Origin: Candidatus Nomurabacteria bacterium
Lineage (GTDB): Bacteria > Patescibacteriota > Minisyncoccia > Phycocordibacterales > UBA9973
Reading direction: 5' to 3'
NCBI GenBank assembly: GCA_025361085.1
Contig: JANYAX010000036.1
Location: 7,208 to 71,207 of the forward strand
Length of the DNA stretch: 64,000 nucleotides
Shown: positions 2,155 to 21,385 of the stretch, piece after piece
Numbering within the stretch: the first letter of the stretch is position 1
How the letters are laid out: every line of letters begins with the position of its first letter
Program-made: the position numbers and the translations under genes
Notes under the pieces: generated by a model
What the model saw: the letters and a program-made list of their open reading frames with translations, nothing else
Told to the model about the DNA's origin: nothing
Database searches by the model: none

Positions 2155-3243
2155 ATGTCAAAAGATTATTACAATACACTTGGTGTTGACAAGAGTGCTT
2201 CGAAGGAAGAAATCAAGAAAGCATTTCACAAGCAAGCTCATAAATATCACCCCGATAAAAATAAAGGTGATGATAGTAAATTCAAGGAAGTGAATGAAGC
2301 TTACCAGGTTCTTTCTGATGACCAGAAACGTGCAAGATATGACCAATTCGGTTCTACCGATGGCCCAATGGGTGGTGGTTATGGTGGAGGTCAGCAAGGT
2401 GGATTTGGTGGATTTGACTTTTCAGGTTTTCAGAATGGTCAAGGTTTCGATATGGGAGATCTCGGAGATATTTTCGGAGATTTCTTTGGTGGCGGAATGG
2501 GGCGAGGTACAAAAAATGTACGTCGTGGAAGAGATATCCAAACTGAAATTGATTTAACTTTCGAAGAATCAGTTTTTGGCGTTAATAAGAATATTTCAAT
2601 CACTAAACAATCTACTTGCGATATTTGTAAAGGAACTGGTGGAAAAGTTGGTACGAAAATGAATACTTGTAAAACTTGTAATGGACAAGGGAAAGTGCGT
2701 GAAGTTCGTCGCTCGATACTTGGTTCATTTGAAACTACTAAAACTTGTGAGACTTGTTTAGGTTCAGGCAAAGTTTCATCAGAGAAATGTTCTAACTGTC
2801 ATGGCATAGGTGTTCTAAGAAAGCAATCAGAAATAAATATCGGCGTTCCATCTGGAATAAATGATGGGGAGATGCTAAAGATGGCAGGTGCGGGTGAAGA
2901 TATTCAAGGTGGTAAATCTGGTGATTTATATATAAAAGTAAGAGTTAAACCTCATGCAATTTATAAGCGAGATAGTCTTAATCTGACGATGGATTTGCCA
3001 ATTAAACTTACCGATGCACTTCTTGGTATGGTTTATAATTTGAAAACATTGGAAGGGAACACGATCGAAGTTAAAATTCCTGAAGGTATAAATCATAATG
3101 AATTACTTAGAGTTAGAGGCAGAGGTGTGCCATCGAGCCGTGGACGCGGTGATATAATAATTCGTATTCAAGTCAAAATGCCGACAAAACTTTCACGAAG
3201 AGAAAAAGAATTAATTGAAAAATTAAAAGAAGAAGGCCTCTAA
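2155..3243 (+). CDS. dnaJ: Chaperone DnaJ (Hsp40)
   Basis: J-domain with HPD (KYHPDKN); Gly/Phe-rich linker; four CxxCxGxG zinc-finger repeats; directly downstream of dnaK. Confidence 0.93.
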   Translation: MSKDYYNTLGVDKSASKEEIKKAFHKQAHKYHPDKNKGDDSKFKEVNEAYQVLSDDQKRARYDQFGSTDGPMGGGYGGGQQGGFGGFDFSGFQNGQGFDMGDLGDIFGDFFGGGMGRGTKNVRRGRDIQTEIDLTFEESVFGVNKNISITKQSTCDICKGTGGKVGTKMNTCKTCNGQGKVREVRRSILGSFETTKTCETCLGSGKVSSEKCSNCHGIGVLRKQSEINIGVPSGINDGEMLKMAGAGEDIQGGKSGDLYIKVRVKPHAIYKRDSLNLTMDLPIKLTDALLGMVYNLKTLEGNTIEVKIPEGINHNELLRVRGRGVPSSRGRGDIIIRIQVKMPTKLSRREKELIEKLKEEGL

Positions 3244-3245
3244 TT

Positions 3246-3276
3246 CTCCAGATAGTGGCAAGGCCACTATCTGGAG
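3246..3276. repeat. Perfect palindromic hairpin CTCCAGATAGTGG-CAAGG-CCACTATCTGGAG, 3 nt after dnaJ stop; member of a 2-copy family (second copy 20186..20218)
   Basis: 27-nt core ccagatagtggcaaggccactatctgg identical at both loci; outer stem bases differ but stay complementary (ctc/gag vs ccc/ggg); no U-tract follows. Confidence 0.6.
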
Positions 3277-3363
3277 GAGGGAAAACCTTTACTTATCGCT
3301 CATTTTTGCTATGATTGTTAATATTATTATTTATTACAGGTCGTAGACCTGATATATAAAGAG

Positions 3364-4755
3364 ATGAATAAAAGTTCTAAGGCTGCAAAGAAGCTCTGGA
3401 AAATTGGTTCTAAAGATTTCAACACTCAATATTTTGATTACAATAAAGAGGGTGATTTAATTATTAAAGAAGGACACAATATTTATAATGTTCGTTATTT
3501 GGCAGAGAAATTCGGCACTTCACTAGAAATTCTCATGCCTTTTGTTATTGAGGAGAGATTAGAAGATTTTCTAGATCTTGCCGCGGCCATATCAAAGAAA
3601 GTAGAATTTAAAGGTAAATTCTTTTATAACTACCCGATGAAGGTCAATCAAAGCAAGGAGATAGTCATGTCTGTTGTTGGTGAAGGAGCACACCTTGAAA
3701 CGTCATCATACAATGAACTTTGGATGGTTAAAAAAATGCTAGAACAAGAAAAGTTCAATCCGAACATTCGTATACTTTGTTCAGGTCCAAAAACTGATAG
3801 CTATATAAATCTTATCGATGAATTACAACATAAAGGTGTAAAAATTTTTCCTTTGATCGAAGGACCAAACGAATTAAAGTTTTTACAATATTCTAAATAT
3901 GATGTCGGTATACGTCTCGATATCCCAGTGAAAGCAAGTTCTAGATGGAATAAACCAGTAGACAGATTTGGTTTCTCAGCAAAAGAAATTTTGGACATGG
4001 GATCGTTTAAGAATTTGAAAATTCTTCACTATCATGTTGGATCGCAAATTGAAAAACTTAATGATGTTTTGATTCCGATTAAATATGCGCTTGATGTTTA
4101 CTTCAAACTCAAAGAAAAAAATCCATCGCTTGATACTCTTGATATCGGAGGAGGGATGCCGATACCTTACGAGAGAACAAAAGGTTATCCTGTCGAAAAG
4201 TTAATGGAAAGAATACTTAAATTAGTCAAAACAGAATCAGAAAAGCGCGGGCTTCCACATCCAAATTTGATTTGTGAATGGGGTAGATATATGGTTGCTC
4301 CAGCGCAAATTACAGTTTACAAAGTTATTGATACAAAAAGAATAAAACATAAAGCCAGTCCTGCCACAAAATGGTATGTTATTGATGGTAGTTTTATGAA
4401 TGATCTTCCAGACACTTGGGCCATCGATCAAAAATGGGCAATTGCTCCTGTAAATAATAAAAGAGACGGTAATCTAAATGAAGTTTGGCTTGCTGGCTCC
4501 TCCTGTGATTCTGATGATATATATAAAGGATTGAAAGAAACTCTCACCTTACCAGTATTCGATATGAACGGTGAAAATGACGGTGCTGGACCAATGTATA
4601 TTGTTGTGTTTGATACAGGTGCTTATCAGACATCTCTTGCTGCACAACATTGCATGCTATCATCACCGATGAAAATAGTGGTAGAAAATGGCCACATCGT
4701 CGTTGTAAAAAAACGTGAGTCAGCTGAAGATGTTGGTAAAACTTTCGGATGGTAA
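3364..4755 (+). CDS. PLP-dependent group IV (alanine-racemase fold) basic amino acid decarboxylase; likely arginine decarboxylase given neighbours
   Basis: 463 aa; YPMKVN PLP-lysine region, GGGMP, HYHVGSQ, EWGRY, CDSDD motifs typical of the Orn/DAP/Arg decarboxylase family. Confidence 0.7.
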   Translation: MNKSSKAAKKLWKIGSKDFNTQYFDYNKEGDLIIKEGHNIYNVRYLAEKFGTSLEILMPFVIEERLEDFLDLAAAISKKVEFKGKFFYNYPMKVNQSKEIVMSVVGEGAHLETSSYNELWMVKKMLEQEKFNPNIRILCSGPKTDSYINLIDELQHKGVKIFPLIEGPNELKFLQYSKYDVGIRLDIPVKASSRWNKPVDRFGFSAKEILDMGSFKNLKILHYHVGSQIEKLNDVLIPIKYALDVYFKLKEKNPSLDTLDIGGGMPIPYERTKGYPVEKLMERILKLVKTESEKRGLPHPNLICEWGRYMVAPAQITVYKVIDTKRIKHKASPATKWYVIDGSFMNDLPDTWAIDQKWAIAPVNNKRDGNLNEVWLAGSSCDSDDIYKGLKETLTLPVFDMNGENDGAGPMYIVVFDTGAYQTSLAAQHCMLSSPMKIVVENGHIVVVKKRESAEDVGKTFGW

Positions 4756-4941: not shown

Positions 4942-5961
4942 ATGAATACAAATTTAAACACTTTAGAATTTATTCTAAAAAATTATAAGAATTTCAATGC
5001 ACGTGCGACGAAAGACGCAACTATTTCGTATTGGCGTCATATTGAAAAGGGTGGAAAAATGTTTTGGGCCATGGGTGGGGCGATGTCTTCTGCTCAGCTT
5101 GGAATAACACTTGCGCCTGCAATCCGAAGTGGTTTGATTTCGGGAATGTCTGTGACAGGAGCGAACCTCGAAGAATCACTCTTCCGTCTTGTTGCTCACA
5201 AGAGTTACAAAGATTTTCCTGATTATCGATATTTTACTAAAGAAGATGACACAAAAATTCTCGAAGACCGCATGCGTCGCGTGACAGATACAAGTATCCC
5301 AGAAGATGAAGCATTTCGTGTTGTCGAGAAACAAATTGTCCCTACTTGGAAGACAGCCACAGTAGATGGCACAAGAAAGTTTTGGCATGAATATTTCTAC
5401 GAGCTTATTCAATCGATTGATAAAGAAAAGCACGAAGGAAGTGCCGATGAATGTTGGTTACTTGCAGCAGCCGAGAAAAATATTCCAATTGTAGTTCCTG
5501 GATATGAAGATTCAACTTTTGGAAATATTTTTGCTTCATATGTAAAGACTGGTGAATGCAGTGCAAATATTGCAAAATCCGGAGTTGAATACATGTGTGC
5601 TTGGTATGACCAATATCAGAAATTATCCGAAGGTCAGGGTGTCGGGTTCTTCCAAATTGGTGGTGGTATATCTGGGGATTTTCCAATCTGTGTAGTCCCT
5701 TCTATCAAATATGATCTGCAAAAAGATGTTAAACCATGGGCATATTTCTGCCAAATTTCTGATTCGACAACTTCATATGGTTCATATTCAGGGGCAACTC
5801 CAAATGAGAAAATTACTTGGGATAAACTTACAAAAGACACTCCAATGTTTGTCATCGAATCCGATGCAACTATCGTCGTTCCTCTAGTACTAAATGCACT
5901 TATGGAATGCCAAGCAAACCCAGCTGAAGCAAATAAATTAATAGAAAAGTACACAGCATAA
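4942..5961 (+). CDS. Deoxyhypusine synthase-like protein (DHS family; possible aminobutyl transferase / homospermidine-type synthase)
   Basis: 339 aa, DHS-typical length; VTGANLEES resembles the DHS VTTAGG-EED NAD-region motif; sits between a decarboxylase and an agmatinase-family gene. Confidence 0.6.
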   Translation: MNTNLNTLEFILKNYKNFNARATKDATISYWRHIEKGGKMFWAMGGAMSSAQLGITLAPAIRSGLISGMSVTGANLEESLFRLVAHKSYKDFPDYRYFTKEDDTKILEDRMRRVTDTSIPEDEAFRVVEKQIVPTWKTATVDGTRKFWHEYFYELIQSIDKEKHEGSADECWLLAAAEKNIPIVVPGYEDSTFGNIFASYVKTGECSANIAKSGVEYMCAWYDQYQKLSEGQGVGFFQIGGGISGDFPICVVPSIKYDLQKDVKPWAYFCQISDSTTSYGSYSGATPNEKITWDKLTKDTPMFVIESDATIVVPLVLNALMECQANPAEANKLIEKYTA

Positions 5962-7083: not shown

Positions 7084-7114
7084 AAGGCGTACAAATAATG
7101 TACGCCTTTTATTT
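7084..7114. terminator. Bidirectional rho-independent terminator hairpin (AAGGCGTACA-aataa-TGTACGCCTT) between convergent genes
   Basis: 10-bp perfect stem flanked by A-run upstream and T-run downstream. Confidence 0.55.
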
Positions 7115-12720: not shown

Positions 12721-12758
12721 AAAAAGCTGAGCTAGGTCTTGCCTAGCTCAGCTTTTTA
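12721..12758. terminator. Bidirectional terminator hairpin AGCTGAGCTAGG-tcttg-CCTAGCTCAGCT flanked by A5/T5
   Basis: 12-bp perfect stem between convergent HK (+) and cysS (-). Confidence 0.65.
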
Positions 12759-14748: not shown

Positions 14749-15120
14749 ATGCCTAAAGCAACAACTACAACAAAAAAGACCAAAACAACAATTCCTGAAA
14801 GTAAGGAATTTGCCGTTATATTTACTGGTGGCAAGCAATACAAAGTTGCAGTTGGGGATGTTTTGAAAGTAGAAAAAATAGAAGGGGATTTCAAGATTGG
14901 AGATAAGGTTGTGTTTGATAAAGTCCTTCTTGTAGATGATGGTACAAATACAACAATCGGAACTCCATATATCGCAAATGCAAAAGTAGAATCACTATTT
15001 CAAAAAGTAGGGAAAGGTAAAACAGTTAAAGTGGTCAAATATAAACAAAAGAGCCGATACCTCAAACAAAACGGCCACCGCCAACCATTCCTCGAAGTCA
15101 AAATCTCATCAATCAAATAA
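14749..15120 (+). CDS. rplU: 50S ribosomal protein L21 with Lys/Thr-rich N-terminal extension
   Basis: FAVIFTGGKQYKVAVGDVLKVEKIEG matches the L21 core; start trimmed to Met22 of the track ORF; inverted repeat ATCCAGATAT..ATTTCTGGAT in the leader (14703..14739). Confidence 0.8.
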   Translation: MPKATTTTKKTKTTIPESKEFAVIFTGGKQYKVAVGDVLKVEKIEGDFKIGDKVVFDKVLLVDDGTNTTIGTPYIANAKVESLFQKVGKGKTVKVVKYKQKSRYLKQNGHRQPFLEVKISSIK

Positions 15121-15148
15121 AAAAATCCGTTATAAACGGATTTTTTTA
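15121..15148. terminator. Terminator hairpin ATCCGTTTATAAACGGAT followed by T7
   Basis: Perfect stem plus U-tract directly after rplU. Confidence 0.6.
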
Positions 15149-15760
15149 TGCGCGGTTTTTGAGGGCGTTTTTGATTGTTTCGGAATCGGAGTATTCGAGT
15201 TCGGTGCCGGTTGAAAGCCCACGGCCAAGAGAGACTATTTTGAAACCGTACTTTTCTTCCAGTGGTGACATTTTCTCACGCAAATACATATCGGTGTGTT
15301 CACCTTGAGGGTTTAAAGAAAGAGCGATAATTACTTCTTTCAAACCATCGTGCTTTGCGCGAGTTTCGATAGAATTCAATAACTCTTTTAATCTTAAAAA
15401 TGTTGGGGTATCTTTTGTGACTATTGGTGCAAGCCCTCCGAGAATAAAATACATTCCAGAATAATTTTTACTTCTTTTTATATTTTCATAATCTGCGTCT
15501 TTTTCAATAATCAGAAGGGAAGTTCGGTCAGTTTTTTTATCACTACAAGTCGCACAAAGCTCATCACGTTCATCTTCAAAAAACAAAAAACACGATGGGC
15601 ATTGGTGAATCAGATTTTTGAGCGAAAGCACACTATCGCCGAGTTCTTTTACATAATTTGGATTTTTATGAAGAAGAAAATATACAAAACGCTTCGATTG
15701 ACGTTCGCCAATTCCGGGAAATTCTTTAAAATATTGCGCTAATTTGTCGATTGGACTCAT
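15146..15760 (-). CDS. recR: Recombination protein RecR
   Basis: 204 aa; C4 zinc finger CPSC..CATC, Toprim domain, RecR-typical length. Confidence 0.85.
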   Translation of the reverse strand: MSPIDKLAQYFKEFPGIGERQSKRFVYFLLHKNPNYVKELGDSVLSLKNLIHQCPSCFLFFEDERDELCATCSDKKTDRTSLLIIEKDADYENIKRSKNYSGMYFILGGLAPIVTKDTPTFLRLKELLNSIETRAKHDGLKEVIIALSLNPQGEHTDMYLREKMSPLEEKYGFKIVSLGRGLSTGTELEYSDSETIKNALKNRA

Positions 15761-18805: not shown

Positions 18806-20155
18806 ATGAAAGGAAGAATATATATAAAAGAATTAAATAAGTGGATGGGCAAAGAAGTAATGATTGCTGGCTGGGTTGATGTCCGTCGCGATCAAGGGAA
18901 AATGATTTTCTTGGATTTTCGTGATATGACCGGAAAGGTGCAAGGTGTTATTTTACCCAATTACACCGAGACTCTTGAAGTTGGAAAAACTTTGCGTAAT
19001 GAATTTGTCGTAAAAGTAAAAGGAAAAGTAAATGAACGCCCAGAGCGCAACAAAAAAGCCGATACATTAAATGGTGAACTCGAACTTGAAATACTTGAGA
19101 TTGAGGTGCTTGCTGAAGCGGCTACTTTGCCTTTCGATATGTCACTTACTGGCTACAATCTCGAACTCACAACAGAGCTCGATAATAGAGCTTTAGTTAT
19201 GAGACAACCCAAAGTTCAAGCAATCTTCAAAGTTACTGAAACTATCATAGATTCGTTCCGCGAATTTATGAAAAATAATTCTTTCTTTGAATTCCAAGCT
19301 CCAAGTATCACTCCAGCGACAGCCGAAGGTGGAGCCGAAGTTTTTCAAGTAGATTATTTTGGTAAAAAAGCATATTTGTCGCAATCGCCACAACTTTACA
19401 AACAGATTGTAATGTCGGCATTCGAAAGATGTTTCTCTGTGAACAAAGTTTTTCGCGCTGAACCATCTTCAACCACTCGTCACTTGACTGAAGTTGTTTG
19501 TTTGGATGCTGAAATGGGCTTTATCGATTCGTGGCGCGATGTTCGCGATATGGCCGAAGAAACTTTCCGATATATACTTAAACAAGTTGAAACAAAAAAT
19601 GCCGAGCATCTTAAAATGCTCGGGGCTGATTTACCTGTAATGATCGACAAAACCCCGACTTATTCTTTACGTGAAGTTCAGCAAAAAATATTTGAAGTCT
19701 ACGGCAGAGACGTTCGTGGTGAGAAAGATACGAATCCGCAAGATGAACGTGAGATTTGCGAAATAGTCAAAAAGGAAACTGGTTCGGACTTCGTGTTTAT
19801 CTATGGTTACCCAACTCGCAAGAAGCCTTTCTATGTTTACCCAAATCCAGAAGAACCAGAATTCAACGAAGGAATGGACTTGATTTGTCGTGGAGTTGAA
19901 TGGCTCTCGGGCGGGCGAAGAATAAACAAATACGACCAGCTCGAAGAGCATGTGAAAATTTGGGGCATGGATCCAAATAAGATCAAAATGTTTTTGGAAG
20001 CATTCAAATACGGAGTTCCACCAGAAGGCGGGTTCTCATTTGGTGCTGAACGCATAACCATGCAACTTCTCAACCTAAAAAACATCCGCGAAGCTTGCAT
20101 GTTCCCACGCGACATGAACAGAATTGACGAACGTTTAAGTGAAGAAGGGTATTAA
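18806..20155 (+). CDS. aspS: Aspartyl-tRNA synthetase, archaeal/non-discriminating type (class IIb)
   Basis: 449 aa; OB anticodon-binding N-terminus, class II motifs, C-terminal GGFSFGAERITM; short length and gatB nearby favour the ND-AspRS type. Confidence 0.8.
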   Translation: MKGRIYIKELNKWMGKEVMIAGWVDVRRDQGKMIFLDFRDMTGKVQGVILPNYTETLEVGKTLRNEFVVKVKGKVNERPERNKKADTLNGELELEILEIEVLAEAATLPFDMSLTGYNLELTTELDNRALVMRQPKVQAIFKVTETIIDSFREFMKNNSFFEFQAPSITPATAEGGAEVFQVDYFGKKAYLSQSPQLYKQIVMSAFERCFSVNKVFRAEPSSTTRHLTEVVCLDAEMGFIDSWRDVRDMAEETFRYILKQVETKNAEHLKMLGADLPVMIDKTPTYSLREVQQKIFEVYGRDVRGEKDTNPQDEREICEIVKKETGSDFVFIYGYPTRKKPFYVYPNPEEPEFNEGMDLICRGVEWLSGGRRINKYDQLEEHVKIWGMDPNKIKMFLEAFKYGVPPEGGFSFGAERITMQLLNLKNIREACMFPRDMNRIDERLSEEGY

Positions 20156-20185
20156 AACACAAATTTTATTAAAGAATTCCCAAAT

Positions 20186-20218
20186 CCCCCAGATAGTGGC
20201 AAGGCCACTATCTGGGGG
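20186..20218. repeat. Second copy of the CCAGATAGTGG-CAAGG-CCACTATCTGG palindromic hairpin, about 30 nt after aspS stop
   Basis: Same 27-nt core as 3248..3274; extended here by CCC/GGG. Confidence 0.6.
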
Positions 20219-20542
20219 ATTGACTTTATGGGTTTTGAGATGTAGAGTGAAAGAAAAATTCAAACATTAATTAAATTAACAACAAAATGTATCCTGCGCA
20301 GCCGCAAAAGAACTGGAGGCTGATGGATATATAATTTCAAATATTCCGAGGAACAACGATGGGATTAAAAATAGAATCTCATGGGTGTAATAATGATGGA
20401 CCGTCGCAATCAGCGACGGTTTTCATTTGAAAAAGTAACTCTCACGAAAATGTTTTGTGTATCAGACACCTAGCAAGGGGTGCCTTTTCTACCTTTCAGT
20501 GGCCTTTTTTATATTAAATTTGCGTGTTATAATTGAAAGGTA

Positions 20543-21385
20543 ATGAAAAAAGAAATCATACGGTCACTTGTAAATAACTTTGAATCTTGTGCTAAAAAAA
20601 CCGAAGAAGGAATAGAATTTTGGCTTGCTCGTGATTTACAACAACTTTTAGGATATGACAAGTGGGATAATTTTTTAAATGTTATCTCAAAAGCAAAAAT
20701 ATCTTGTGAAAATAGCGGTAATAATGTTTCTGATCATTTTGCCGACGTCGGGAAAACGATCCAAATGCCTAAAGGTGCCCAAAAAGAAGTGCCAGATTTA
20801 ATGCTCACTCGTTATGCTTGTTATTTAATTGCCCAAAATGGTGATCCTCGAAAAGAAGAGATATCTTTTGCCCAAAATTATTTTGCAGTTCAAACAAGAA
20901 AATTTGAAATCATTGAAAAAAGAATTCAAGAATTTGAAAGAATAAAAGCTCGTCATAAACTTACAGAGACCGAGAAAGAATTATCAAGCGTTATTTTTCA
21001 GCAAACACACAGCGACAAAAATTTTGCCCTTATTCGGAGTAAAGGAGATAAAGCTTTATTTGGGTATGGAACAAGTGAAATGAAAACAAGATTGGGTATT
21101 CCACAAAGTAGAGCGCTTTCAGATTTTCAACCAACAATTCTCTTAAAAGCAAAAGATTTTGCAACAGAAATTACGATTTTTAATACAAAAGCAAAAGGGC
21201 TAAGGACTGAACAATTAATTTCAGATGAGCATATAACTAACAATCGAAGTGTGCGTAAAACACTTATTGAGCGTGGCATCCGTCCAGAAAGTTTACCAGT
21301 TGAAGAAGATATTAAAAAAGTAGAAAGAAAGCTGTCGTCAGATGCTAAGAAAAATTTTAAAAAGCCAATAAAACTTAAAAAATAA
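20543..21385 (+). CDS. dinD: DinD-family protein (DNA-damage-inducible protein D-like)
   Basis: 280 aa; EFWLARDL, SDHFAD, LTRYACYLIAQNGDP, YFAVQTRK and FALIRSKGDKALFGY match blocks recalled from E. coli DinD. Confidence 0.6.
   Translation: MKKEIIRSLVNNFESCAKKTEEGIEFWLARDLQQLLGYDKWDNFLNVISKAKISCENSGNNVSDHFADVGKTIQMPKGAQKEVPDLMLTRYACYLIAQNGDPRKEEISFAQNYFAVQTRKFEIIEKRIQEFERIKARHKLTETEKELSSVIFQQTHSDKNFALIRSKGDKALFGYGTSEMKTRLGIPQSRALSDFQPTILLKAKDFATEITIFNTKAKGLRTEQLISDEHITNNRSVRKTLIERGIRPESLPVEEDIKKVERKLSSDAKKNFKKPIKLKK

What the first reader, a model, noticed from the sequence alone, without database searches (positions are those of the whole stretch)
3246..3276. Two-copy palindromic hairpin family with compensatory outer-stem changes (second copy 20186..20218)
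The core CCAGATAGTGGC-AAG-GCCACTATCTGG is identical after dnaJ and after aspS. Copy 1 extends the stem with CTC/GAG and copy 2 with CCC/GGG: different bases, but complementarity is preserved, implying selection on structure. Neither copy is followed by a U-tract, so they are not canonical intrinsic terminators. Candidates are lineage-specific U-less terminators, RNA-stability elements, REP-like repeats, or a protein-binding site.
Basis: seen in the sequence. Interest (0 to 1): 0.5.

Follow-up and report, generated by a model that had tools for sequence, protein, structure and literature searches.

The report
REP-like mobile hairpin repeat in Nomurabacteria
The two identical hairpins are copies of a small palindromic repeat that, in related ultra-small (CPR) bacteria, brackets and even sits inside the gene of a REP-type tyrosine transposase, so they are best read as a new, low-copy variant of the known REP/RAYT mobile-repeat system rather than as special terminators.

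Summary
Perfect hairpins lie at 3246-3276 (14-bp stem) and 20183-20221 (18-bp stem). They share a 27-nt core, and none is expected by chance.

The same core (CAGATAGTGGC-AAG/CTT-GCCACTATCTG) occurs at about 12 other intergenic loci. All are in low-GC Nomurabacteria-type contigs.

In a related genome (LBPS01, locus L004), two copies in inverted loop orientation flank a 239-aa IS200-like Y1 (HUH) protein. Its best structural match is E. coli TnpA_REP bound to a REP hairpin. A third copy lies inside that ORF.

In three more distant lineages the same syntenic gene carries three hairpins. Their stems are lineage-specific but match within each locus.

Both window copies are absent from the orthologous sites of the closest available relatives. 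Copy 1 is a clean ~40-nt insertion between the dnaJ stop and the next promoter.

The outer-stem "compensation" reflects sub-families that were copied with their outer stems. True covariation exists in the inner stem across lineages.

Verdict: a REP-like element cognate to a RAYT-like transposase. It is a new variant: ATAG rather than GTAG tag, low copy number, and in-ORF copies. Mobilisation by the enzyme and any RNA role are inferred.

The parts
3246..3276 (+). REP-like hairpin, copy 1. Stem 3246-3259 pairs with 3263-3276; loop AAG at 3260-3262. It begins 2 nt after the dnaJ stop codon (3241-3243).
   Evidence: The 32-nt unit CTCC..GGAGG is identical to L009, apart from a flipped loop, at a non-homologous locus.
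3244..3285 (+). Segment of about 40 nt (TT-hairpin-GAGGGAAAA) that is absent from the orthologous dnaJ-decarboxylase spacer of relatives. This is the inserted unit; its edges are uncertain by about 2 nt.
   Evidence: Alignment A3. L036, L038 and L039 read TAAAA|CCTTTACA with nothing in between.
20183..20221 (+). REP-like hairpin, copy 2. Stem 20183-20200 pairs with 20204-20221; loop AAG. It begins 27 nt after the aspS stop (20155).
   Evidence: The 41 nt AATCCCCC..GGGGGATT are identical to L026 1190-1230, which lies between the aldolase and L25 genes. The hairpin is absent after aspS in L040 and L041.
2155..3243 (+). dnaJ, the gene whose 3' end abuts copy 1 (context only).
   Evidence: Pfam domains DnaJ, DnaJ_CXXCXGXG and DnaJ_C.
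3288..3315 (+). Promoter-like block (TTTACT-16-TATGAT with an upstream TG) for the Orn/Arg decarboxylase gene. It is conserved in relatives and marks the right edge of the insertion site (context only).
18806..20155 (+). Nondiscriminating aspartyl-tRNA synthetase, the gene upstream of copy 2 (context only).
20543..21385 (+). Bro-N / phrog_8036 gene. Together with copy 2 it forms a segment of about 1.25 kb between aspS and the HIT gene that is absent in relatives (context only).

Best explanation
The two hairpins are dispersed copies of a REP-like (repetitive extragenic palindrome) element of a Nomurabacteria/Paceibacterota (CPR) lineage.

The unit is 31-41 nt long. It has:
- an invariant base, (C)AGATAG...CTATCT(G);
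- a lineage-specific apical stem;
- a 3-nt loop;
- a variable outer stem.

Its cognate enzyme is a vertically inherited, RAYT-like Y1 (HUH) transposase of about 240 aa. That gene lies between an S1-domain gene and a Lactamase_B_3-gyrA block. In every lineage examined it is preceded by one copy of the hairpin, contains a second copy in frame (codons ~60-68), and ends in a third copy that supplies its last codons or its stop codon.

Proposed mechanism, by analogy with E. coli and S. maltophilia TnpA_REP:
1. The hairpin forms on single-stranded DNA.
2. The enzyme binds it and cleaves and rejoins DNA next to it.
3. Over evolutionary time this seeds new solo copies in intergenic DNA, typically just after stop codons.

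What is shown:
- the repeat family;
- its association with the enzyme gene and its covariation with it;
- the fold of the enzyme;
- the insertion/absence polymorphism at both window sites.

What is inferred:
- catalysis by this enzyme on this hairpin;
- that the window's own genome still carries the gene;
- any effect of the transcribed hairpins on mRNA 3' ends.
For: 1. Repeat family. The identical 25-27-nt core occurs at two window sites. It also occurs at 5 exact sites in the one matching genome of the 185,579-species collection, the Candidatus Nomurabacteria MAG LBPS01, and at further low-GC metagenome loci. Two decayed copies turned up in fetched DNA, at L001:170 and L002:3388. All dispersed copies are intergenic, mostly 1-34 nt from a stop codon. 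Their neighbouring genes are not homologous to window genes.

2. Cognate enzyme. L004 5232-5951 encodes a 239-aa protein.
- It passes the Pfam Y1_Tnp cut-off (32.7 bits against 23).
- Its only NCBIfam hit is REP_Tyr_transpos.
- The best PDB match of its AF2 model is 4er8_A, TnpA_REP bound to a REP hairpin (E 1.4e-4, target TM 0.65), ahead of the IS608 and ISDra2 TnpA structures.
- H87/H89 (HUH) and Y147 are conserved in 30 homologues.
- It is flanked by the hairpin with inverted loops (CTT at 5177-5201, AAG at 5926-5950), and it contains a variant carrying a compensated T:A to A:T change at 5412-5436.

3. Covariation. L029 carries three CAGATAGGGGC-TAA/TTA-GCCCCTATCTG hairpins. L031 carries three CAGATAGTG-GCGAAAG-CACTATCTG hairpins. 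L033 carries a CGC variant. All sit in the same syntenic gene. Across 120 homologues, internal codon 62 (GNG) and the C-terminal codon AGN agree in 94 of 103 informative cases. Pair counts on 24 units give 89.6% paired cells, and 8 of 14 pairs show two-sided changes.

4. Insertion.
- The dnaJ-decarboxylase spacer is empty in L036, L038 and L039, and holds a different palindrome in L035.
- The relatives fetched for aspS (95% and 91% aa identity) lack both copy 2 and the adjacent Bro-N gene.

5. Sub-families including the outer stem recur at unrelated loci.
Against: - No RAYT gene lies in the 64-kb window, and the rest of that genome could not be fetched.
- Copy number is low. There are 2 copies in 64 kb, and about 5 dispersed plus 3 gene-associated copies in the LBPS01 MAG.
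- No dispersed copies were seen in about 27 kb each of three other lineages that have the gene, nor in 40 kb of the aspS relatives fetched (L040, L041). In most lineages the hairpins may therefore be a property of the gene rather than a spreading repeat.
- The canonical GTAG/GTGG tag 5' of the stem is absent. The invariant ATAG is itself base-paired.
- The protein scores far below the NCBIfam RAYT cut-off (34 bits against 80). Neither the single sequence nor the profile matches any PDB chain by sequence.
- The palindrome at the dnaJ site in L035 does not match that genome's own gene-associated hairpin.
- The collection scans required exact matches, so the apparent 100% conservation of the core is partly due to ascertainment.
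Confidence: 0.78

Rival explanations
1. The hairpins exist primarily as RNA elements: U-less terminators, or 3'-end protectors of the dnaK-dnaJ and aspS transcripts. On this view, sequence identity reflects a shared RNA-binding factor.
For: - Both copies lie just after stop codons of co-directional genes and would be transcribed.
- The RNA hairpins are very stable: -29.7 and -38.1 kcal/mol with flanks.
- Across loci, the loop reads AAG in the sense of the upstream gene in 8 cases and CTT in 2-3 cases.
- REPs are known to sit mostly downstream of ORFs and to act on transcripts (PMC3733652).
Against: - The same genome has ordinary terminators with A/T tracts and unique stems, at 7084-7108, 12721-12757 and 15117-15149.
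- The hairpins are missing from the same sites in the closest relatives, so no conserved regulatory need is apparent.
- Identical units occur before, inside and at the end of a transposase ORF, and covary with it.
- Loop orientation flips between otherwise identical units (window copy 1 versus L009; L004 versus L020). The orientation bias is weak (8 to 3).
- This rival is compatible with the best explanation as a secondary effect.
Confidence: 0.1
2. The Y1 gene plus its hairpins is an ordinary active IS200-family insertion sequence. The dispersed hairpins are solo ends or footprints left by its transposition.
For: - The protein matches Pfam Y1_Tnp (IS200-like).
- Hairpins sit at both gene ends, as at IS200/IS605 ends.
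- One contig (L020) breaks at a hairpin.
Against: - The gene occupies the same syntenic slot (S1 gene | Y1 gene | Lactamase_B_3 | gyrA) in lineages down to 66% aa identity. This indicates vertical, single-locus inheritance.
- The 5' and 3' hairpins are the same sequence in inverted orientation, as in REPtrons. IS200/IS605 has distinct left and right ends on one strand.
- The only NCBIfam hit is the RAYT model; no IS200 model was returned.
- The best structural match is TnpA_REP.
- Dispersed copies are bare hairpins of 31-41 nt.
Confidence: 0.07
3. The palindrome is a double-stranded DNA operator, or a parS/NBS-like site, bound by a dimeric protein.
For: - It is a perfect 12-3-12 inverted repeat.
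- There are few copies per genome.
- Copy 1 lies 12 nt upstream of a promoter-like block.
Against: - Complementarity extends beyond the conserved core with different sequences (up to +10 bp). This is expected for a folded strand and not for a duplex site.
- Across lineages the two arms change together.
- There are no half-sites above chance.
- The sites are absent at orthologous promoters.
- Copies occur inside an ORF.
Confidence: 0.03

Closest known systems
REP / TnpA_REP (RAYT) 'REPtrons' of Proteobacteria, especially group 3 (Stenotrophomonas maltophilia REP_Sm, Marinomonas REP_Mb)
   Same: - A short perfect palindrome with a 3-nt loop.
- Extragenic, mostly just downstream of ORFs.
- The enzyme gene is flanked by two copies in inverted orientation.
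- The enzyme is a Y1 HUH protein, inherited vertically at one locus.
- The repeat sequence is lineage-specific and co-evolves with the enzyme.
(PMC2817692, PMC8266576, PMC5581495.)
   Different: - The tag is ATAG, not GTAG/GTGG, and it is base-paired inside the stem.
- There is a handful of copies per genome rather than tens to hundreds.
- No BIME clusters were seen.
- Two further copies lie in frame inside the enzyme's ORF.
- The protein is about 240 aa, with a long linker before the HUH strand and a C-terminal extension, and it is below the NCBIfam RAYT cut-off.
- The host is a CPR bacterium.
REPIN-RAYT systems (Pseudomonas fluorescens)
   Same: A non-autonomous palindromic repeat tied to a single-copy domesticated Y1 transposase and persisting by vertical descent (PMC3116915, PMC5581495).
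   Different: REPINs are doublets of two inverted REPs with a short spacer. The window copies are singlets 17 kb apart. The only close pairs found are those around and within the enzyme gene itself (L004, and L020 where the contig ends at the in-ORF copy).
Subterminal hairpins of IS200/IS605 elements (IS608, ISDra2)
   Same: ssDNA hairpins recognised by a Y1 HUH enzyme of the same fold. The hairpins lie close to the gene ends.
   Different: In IS200/IS605 the left and right ends differ and lie on one strand, and the whole element is multi-copy and mobile. Here both ends are the same palindrome, and the gene keeps its synteny.
Rickettsia palindromic elements (RPE) and intragenic REPs
   Same: Palindromic repeats that can sit in frame inside ORFs and add a tolerated peptide segment. 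REP ends can also supply stop codons (PMC3733652). Here the hairpin-encoded peptides (residues 51-71 and 216-239) are predicted to be disordered.
   Different: RPEs are longer (about 100-150 bp) and are found in many unrelated genes. Here the in-ORF copies are in the cognate transposase gene itself, and they evolve in concert with the flanking copies.
Rho-independent (intrinsic) terminators
   Same: A stable GC-containing stem-loop just after a stop codon.
   Different: There is no U-tract. The sequence is shared between unrelated loci, whereas the window's own terminators each have a unique stem and A/T tracts.

Membership tests
REP (repetitive extragenic palindrome) | A short (20-40 nt) palindromic unit able to form a stem-loop on one strand | tested here: met
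   Perfect 14- and 18-bp stems with a 3-nt loop. ssDNA folding gives -15.6 and -21.4 kcal/mol, z about -7 to -8.
REP (repetitive extragenic palindrome) | Repeated at many extragenic sites of one genome (usually more than 100 copies) | tested here: not met
   The element is repeated and always extragenic, but at low copy. There are 2 copies in 64 kb. The LBPS01 MAG has 5 exact copies plus 3 variant copies, of which 3 belong to the enzyme gene. Complete genomes were not available.
REP (repetitive extragenic palindrome) | A conserved GTAG/GTGG (or CGTC) tetranucleotide 0-2 nt 5' of the stem foot (PMC6006769, PMC3733652) | tested here: not met
   The invariant columns are A-ATAG ... C-CTAT-T. The conserved tetranucleotide is ATAG, and it pairs with CTAT inside the stem.
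REP (repetitive extragenic palindrome) | At least one copy next to a tnpA_REP gene, with the gene flanked by two copies in inverted orientation (PMC2817692) | tested here: met
   L004, L029, L031 and L033 all have 5' and 3' copies with reverse-complementary loops, in 4 of 4 loci where both ends are seen. This could not be tested in the window's own genome.
REP (repetitive extragenic palindrome) | The repeat sequence is lineage-specific and covaries with the enzyme | tested here: met
   Stem position 11/21 is T:A, G:C, C:G or A:T depending on lineage, and is the same within a locus. Codon 62 and the C-terminal codon are concordant in 94 of 103 informative cases.
RAYT / TnpA_REP (the associated protein) | Y1 HUH fold with an HUH motif and a catalytic tyrosine | tested here: met
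   Pfam PF01797 scores 32.7 bits against a cut-off of 23. The AF2 model (core pLDDT 80-97) has 4er8_A as its top PDB hit. H87-F-H89 and Y147 (with N151) are conserved. Assigning these residues catalytic roles is an inference.
RAYT / TnpA_REP (the associated protein) | Scores above the curated NCBIfam equivalog cut-off (NF047646) | tested here: not met
   34.2 bits against a cut-off of 80. It is nevertheless the only relevant hit.
RAYT / TnpA_REP (the associated protein) | Housekeeping-like inheritance: one locus, conserved synteny, vertical descent (PMC5581495) | tested here: met
   The same neighbours (S1-domain gene, Lactamase_B_3, gyrA) occur in L004, L029-L034 at 66-100% aa identity. Copy number per complete genome was not tested.
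RAYT / TnpA_REP (the associated protein) | Binds and cleaves its cognate single-stranded REP | not testable with these tools
   This needs biochemistry with purified protein and hairpin oligonucleotides.
REPIN | Two REPs in inverted orientation separated by a short spacer, forming a larger hairpin | tested here: not met
   The window copies are singlets 17 kb apart with the same loop orientation.
Intrinsic terminator | A GC-rich hairpin immediately followed by a U/T tract | tested here: not met
   Neither copy is called by the scan, and the tails are GAGGGAAAA and GACTTTAT.
IS200/IS605 insertion sequence | Distinct left and right subterminal hairpins on one strand, with the whole element in several copies at varying sites | tested here: not met
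   Both ends are the same palindrome with inverted loops, and the gene is in fixed synteny across lineages.

The most novel reading that the evidence does not exclude
The three hairpins that precede, interrupt (in frame) and terminate the RAYT-like ORF may be functional substrates of the enzyme it encodes, not passive passengers. The gene would then be a self-targeting 'master copy'.

On this reading, the enzyme (or hairpin-driven gene conversion) keeps the three copies identical, couples its own expression to hairpin formation, and only occasionally seeds solo copies such as the two in this window.

This would be a REP-RAYT architecture specific to CPR bacteria. It would give a physical explanation for long-term co-evolution of enzyme and repeat in very small genomes.
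Probability: 0.25. Interest if true: 0.75.

Novelty: new variant of a known kind. Interest (0 to 1): 0.55.

Why it matters
REP/RAYT systems have been characterised almost entirely in Proteobacteria. My three literature searches found no description of one in Patescibacteria/CPR, although JGI's automatic annotation already labels some of these proteins 'RayT'.

This case matters for three reasons:
- Streamlined CPR genomes keep a domesticated HUH transposase at a fixed locus, together with a cognate hairpin.
- The hairpin can be written into the enzyme's own reading frame in two places and be kept in concert with the flanking copies. This gives a simple, sequence-only read-out of enzyme-repeat co-evolution: codon 62 against the C-terminal Ser/Arg codon.
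- Solo copies mark recent insertions and rearrangement edges in otherwise syntenic genomes.

In practice, such repeats also break metagenome assemblies (the L020 contig ends in one), and they can be mistaken for terminators.

Tried and rejected
- **DNA-uptake-sequence idea.** Isolated half-sites (AGATAGTGGC, up to 1 mismatch) are not above chance once the four arms of the two hairpins are removed.
- **Rfam.** At gathering thresholds only two tRNAs were found, with nothing at the hairpins.
- **Viral contigs.** No match to the core.
- **Sequence-only comparison with PDB.** Nothing relevant came from the single protein or from a 30-sequence profile. The link to TnpA_REP needed a structure model.
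- **The window's own contig.** The NCBI contig is 74,523 bp.
- **Metagenome hits with other loops or without the closing C..G.** These were set aside as probable chance hairpins or unrelated terminators:
  - loops GAT, TTT, ATC and TAC in GC-rich contigs (53-59% GC);
  - loops TTA, TGA and TAA with A/T tracts.

  A 10-bp stem is expected to recur by chance among the very many hairpins in that collection. L007/L014 (loop ATT, closing C..G kept) may be a true relative.
- **Loop orientation relative to the upstream gene.** The count is 8 AAG against 2-3 CTT. This is too weak, and the loop flips between otherwise identical units, so I did not use it as evidence for an RNA role.
- **L004 versus L020.** This comparison shows homology ending at a hairpin, but it is not a clean empty site.
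- **Wider homologues.** A scan of 1.84 billion representative proteins shows a very large family (13,189 representatives at E<=1e-3). The QI..LS hairpin motif occurs only in the clade at or above about 63% identity.

Full report
**Observation**

The window carries two perfect hairpins.
- Copy 1 is at 3246-3276: CTCCAGATAGTGGC-AAG-GCCACTATCTGGAG, a 14-bp stem. It starts 2 nt after the dnaJ stop codon.
- Copy 2 is at 20183-20221: AATCCCCCAGATAGTGGC-AAG-GCCACTATCTGGGGGATT, an 18-bp stem. It starts 27 nt after the stop of an Asp-type class-II tRNA synthetase.

The shared 27-nt core has no other match in the window with up to 3 mismatches, and none in 100 shuffles. These are the two best short-loop inverted repeats in the window. 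As ssDNA they fold at -15.6 and -21.4 kcal/mol, with z about -7 to -8.

Neither is followed by a T-run, and neither is called by the terminator scan. The same scan, together with the repeat finder, picks up ordinary terminators with A/T tracts and unique stems at 7084-7108, 12721-12757 and 15117-15149. Rfam finds only two tRNAs in the window.

**The family outside the window**

I scanned one genome per species (185,579 species) for CAGATAGTGGC-N3-6-GCCACTATCTG. This returned five exact copies on four contigs of a single MAG, Candidatus Nomurabacteria GW2011_GWE2_34_25 (LBPS01).

A looser metagenome scan returned 24 loci. Those with an AAG or CTT loop and the closing C..G all come from contigs of 29-37% GC. 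They collapse to about 12 distinct dispersed loci. Hits with other loops, some in contigs of 53-59% GC, are probably chance hairpins or ordinary terminators.

Re-scanning the fetched DNA with looser patterns found two decayed copies, at L001:170 and L002:3388.

All dispersed copies are intergenic, usually 1-34 nt from a stop codon. Their neighbouring genes are not homologous to any window gene. Isolated half-sites are not enriched, and viral contigs have no match.

One caveat applies. The collection scans find only exact matches, so the perfect conservation of the core is partly built into the search.

**The key association**

In LBPS01 (locus L004), two copies 725 nt apart have reverse-complementary loops: CTT at 5177-5201 and AAG at 5926-5950. 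They bracket an ORF of 239 aa at 5232-5951.

Evidence on what this protein is:
- It passes the Pfam cut-off for Y1_Tnp, the IS200-like transposase family.
- Its only NCBIfam hit is the REP-associated tyrosine transposase model, but at 34 bits against a cut-off of 80.
- Sequence searches against PDB found nothing relevant.
- An AF2 model (mean pLDDT 71.6, core 80-97) has E. coli TnpA_REP bound to a REP hairpin (4er8_A) as its best and only significant PDB match (E 1.4e-4, target TM 0.65). The IS608 and ISDra2 transposases follow.
- H87-F-H89 and Y147 are conserved among 30 homologues.

The stop codon of the ORF lies inside the 3' hairpin.

Unexpectedly, a third hairpin lies inside the ORF at 5412-5436, codons 60-68 (QIEALPLSE). 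It reads CAGATAGAGGC-CTT-GCCTCTATCTG, which is the canonical sequence with a compensated T:A to A:T change. In L020, a 73%-identical orthologue, the internal copy is the canonical sequence, and the contig ends in it.

The peptide segments encoded by the hairpins, residues 51-71 and 216-239, are the low-confidence parts of the model. This fits constraint at the DNA level rather than the protein level.

**Covariation across lineages**

The protein has 2,780 homologues in the word-indexed search, mostly from Nomurabacteria/Paceibacterota. JGI names some of them 'REP element-mobilizing transposase RayT'.

I fetched contigs for three homologues of 72-84% identity to P0001 (identities from the A2 alignment). 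All show the same gene order: S1-domain gene on the opposite strand, the Y1 gene, Lactamase_B_3, a small ORF, then gyrA. On the downstream side L004 likewise has Lactamase_B_3. This indicates vertical inheritance at one locus.

Each locus again has three hairpins: one 30-55 nt upstream, one internal, and one over the stop codon. The stems differ between lineages but agree within a locus:

| Locus | Hairpin |
|---|---|
| L029 | CAGATAGGGGC-TTA/TAA-GCCCCTATCTG. The loop of the 3' copy is the stop codon. |
| L031 | CAGATAGTG-GCGAAAG-CACTATCTG |
| L033 | CCAGATAGCGC-CTAAA-GCGCTATCTGG. The 5' copy has changed on both arms to AAATATAGCGC..GCGCTATATTT. |

The 5' and 3' loops are reverse complements in all four loci where both ends are seen.

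Both in-ORF copies are translated, in different frames, so the covariation is visible in protein sequences. Among 120 homologues, internal codon 62 (GNG: V, A, E or G) and the C-terminal codon after Pro-Asp (AGN: S or R) agree with a shared N in 94 of 103 informative cases.

I made a gapless alignment of 24 hairpin units. It gives:
- 89.6% paired cells;
- two-sided changes in 8 of 14 pairs;
- all four Watson-Crick types at pair 11/21;
- every measure well above the slid controls.

Pairs 5-10 were fixed by the pattern used to collect the units. The invariant part is (C)AGATAG...CTATCT(G).

**Are the window copies insertions?**

Copy 1. The dnaK-dnaJ-decarboxylase-deoxyhypusine synthase-arginase block is syntenic in relatives with about 73-82% DnaJ identity.
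- In L036, L038 and L039 the dnaJ stop is followed directly by the conserved promoter block (TAAAA|CCTTTACA...).
- The window has about 40 extra nucleotides there (TT + hairpin + GAGGGAAAA, 3244-3285).
- L035 has a different 44-nt perfect palindrome at the same point. Its outer arms resemble CAGATAGTG with a compensated T:A to C:G change.
- L037 has an unrelated 630-aa gene there.

Copy 2. The relatives fetched for aspS are L040 (95% aa identity) and L041 (91%). L040 runs aspS-HIT-ScpA. L041 has different genes, on both strands, between aspS and ScpA, and no Bro-N gene. Neither has a REP hairpin after aspS. The window has the hairpin, then about 320 nt, then a Bro-N gene (phrog_8036, E 2e-92) between aspS and HIT.

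Both copies are therefore lineage-specific additions rather than conserved regulatory sites.

**The outer stems**

- Window copy 1 shares 32 nt, including CTCC..GGAGG, with L009.
- Window copy 2 shares 41 nt, including AATCCCCC..GGGGGATT, with L026.

Both partners are at unrelated loci. The outer stems therefore travel with the element as sub-families.

About half of the copies extend the stem by 3-10 bp with various sequences, and the others do not. Perfect palindromic extension and two-arm changes can arise in one step by intrastrand template switching (quasipalindrome correction; from my own background knowledge). They are therefore not by themselves proof of selection on structure.

**Mechanism**

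The best-supported reading is a REP-like element cognate to a RAYT-like Y1 HUH enzyme.

By analogy with E. coli, S. maltophilia and Marinomonas TnpA_REP, the enzyme would bind the folded single strand and cut and rejoin next to it, seeding solo copies. Those enzymes cleave at CT or CA next to the single-stranded REP. Group 3 REPs are perfect palindromes with a 3-4-nt loop (PMC8266576).

GC skew is positive throughout the window. The + strand, which shows the AAG loops, therefore has the sequence of the lagging-strand template, which is where IS200/IS605-type enzymes act. With only two copies this is no more than consistent.

Transcribed copies may also affect mRNA 3' ends, as described for REPs in general (PMC3733652). 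I treat this as a possible secondary effect.

**Limits**

- The window has no Y1 gene, and its remaining genome was not retrievable.
- Copy numbers are low.
- No solo copies were seen in about 27 kb each from three other lineages carrying the gene, nor in 40 kb from the aspS relatives fetched (L040, L041).
- The GTAG/GTGG tag that defines described REPs (PMC6006769, section 38) is replaced by a base-paired ATAG.
- No activity has been shown.

**Comparison and novelty**

The system works like a REPtron (PMC2817692, PMC8266576), and its inheritance matches that described for RAYTs (PMC5581495).

It fails three formal membership features: the tag, high copy number, and the NCBIfam cut-off. It also adds in-frame copies inside the enzyme's own ORF that evolve in concert with the flanking copies.

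Intragenic REPs, and REP ends that supply stop codons, are known in other genes (PMC3733652). I found no report of them in the cognate transposase gene, and no report of REP/RAYT in Patescibacteria, in three literature searches.

A library-wide scan shows the protein belongs to a very large family: 13,189 50%-identity representatives at E<=1e-3. The QI..LS motif is restricted to the clade at or above about 63% identity. One distant member (P0406) repeats a heptapeptide in the same two places, which hints that the trait may recur elsewhere.

I therefore rate this a new variant of a known kind, of moderate interest.

Noticed in passing
window 3334-3352 (and L035-L039, just upstream of the decarboxylase start codon): A small hairpin (CAGGTC-GTA-GACCTG) sits between the promoter-like block and the RBS/ATG (3364) of the Orn/Arg decarboxylase gene. 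Relatives keep a hairpin at the same place with different, compensating stems (GCAAAA/TTTTGC, GTGAAA/TTTCAC). This is a possible conserved leader structure of a polyamine operon (decarboxylase, deoxyhypusine synthase, arginase).
   Followed up: no
window 20543-21385: A 280-aa Bro-N domain protein matches phage family phrog_8036 over its full length (E 2e-92). It is absent between aspS and the HIT gene in the two aspS relatives fetched (L040, L041). It is a lineage-specific, phage-like gene lying next to REP copy 2.
   Followed up: partly
L004 5412-5436; L020 1-25; L029 10186-10212; L031 10188-10210: The RAYT-like gene carries its cognate hairpin in frame inside the ORF (codons ~60-68). It carries the hairpin again over its last codons or stop codon; in L029 the hairpin loop TAA is the stop. 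Both peptide segments are predicted to be disordered.
   Followed up: yes
L035 4093-4136: A 44-nt perfect palindrome, CAGACAGTGCCTAAAGCGCTA-TG-TAGCGCTTTAGGCACTGTCTG, sits exactly at the dnaJ-downstream site of another genome. That genome is on the same contig as RAYT locus L029. The outer arms resemble the REP base with a compensated change. It does not match that genome's gene-associated hairpin.
   Followed up: partly
L007 543-599 / L014 9359-9415: The same 11-bp stem CAGATAGTGGC, but with an ATT loop, is embedded in a 27-bp perfect stem in a contig of 27-30% GC. It may be a further relative of the family with a strongly extended palindrome.
   Followed up: no
L016 7231-7289 versus L001 5039/5040: A 59-bp indel lies inside a long ORF in contigs that are otherwise 100% identical. 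It could be strain variation or an assembly artefact.
   Followed up: no
window 7084-7108, 12721-12757, 15117-15149: Ordinary bidirectional intrinsic-terminator-like hairpins with flanking A and T runs and unique stems. This shows the organism uses canonical terminators.
   Followed up: partly
protein P0406 (a distant homologue of the RAYT-like protein): The heptapeptide QHRGSTS occurs both in the linker before the HUH strand and at the C-terminus. This suggests that in-ORF copies of a lineage-specific repeat may also exist in other clades of this large family of 13,189 representatives.
   Followed up: no
L004 ~3790-3812 and L020 ~405-427 (upstream of the S1-domain gene): A conserved AAAAAAACCGC....GCGGCACAG stem with differing loops lies in the divergent promoter region next to the RAYT locus. 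Homology between the two genomes ends at the REP hairpin.
   Followed up: no
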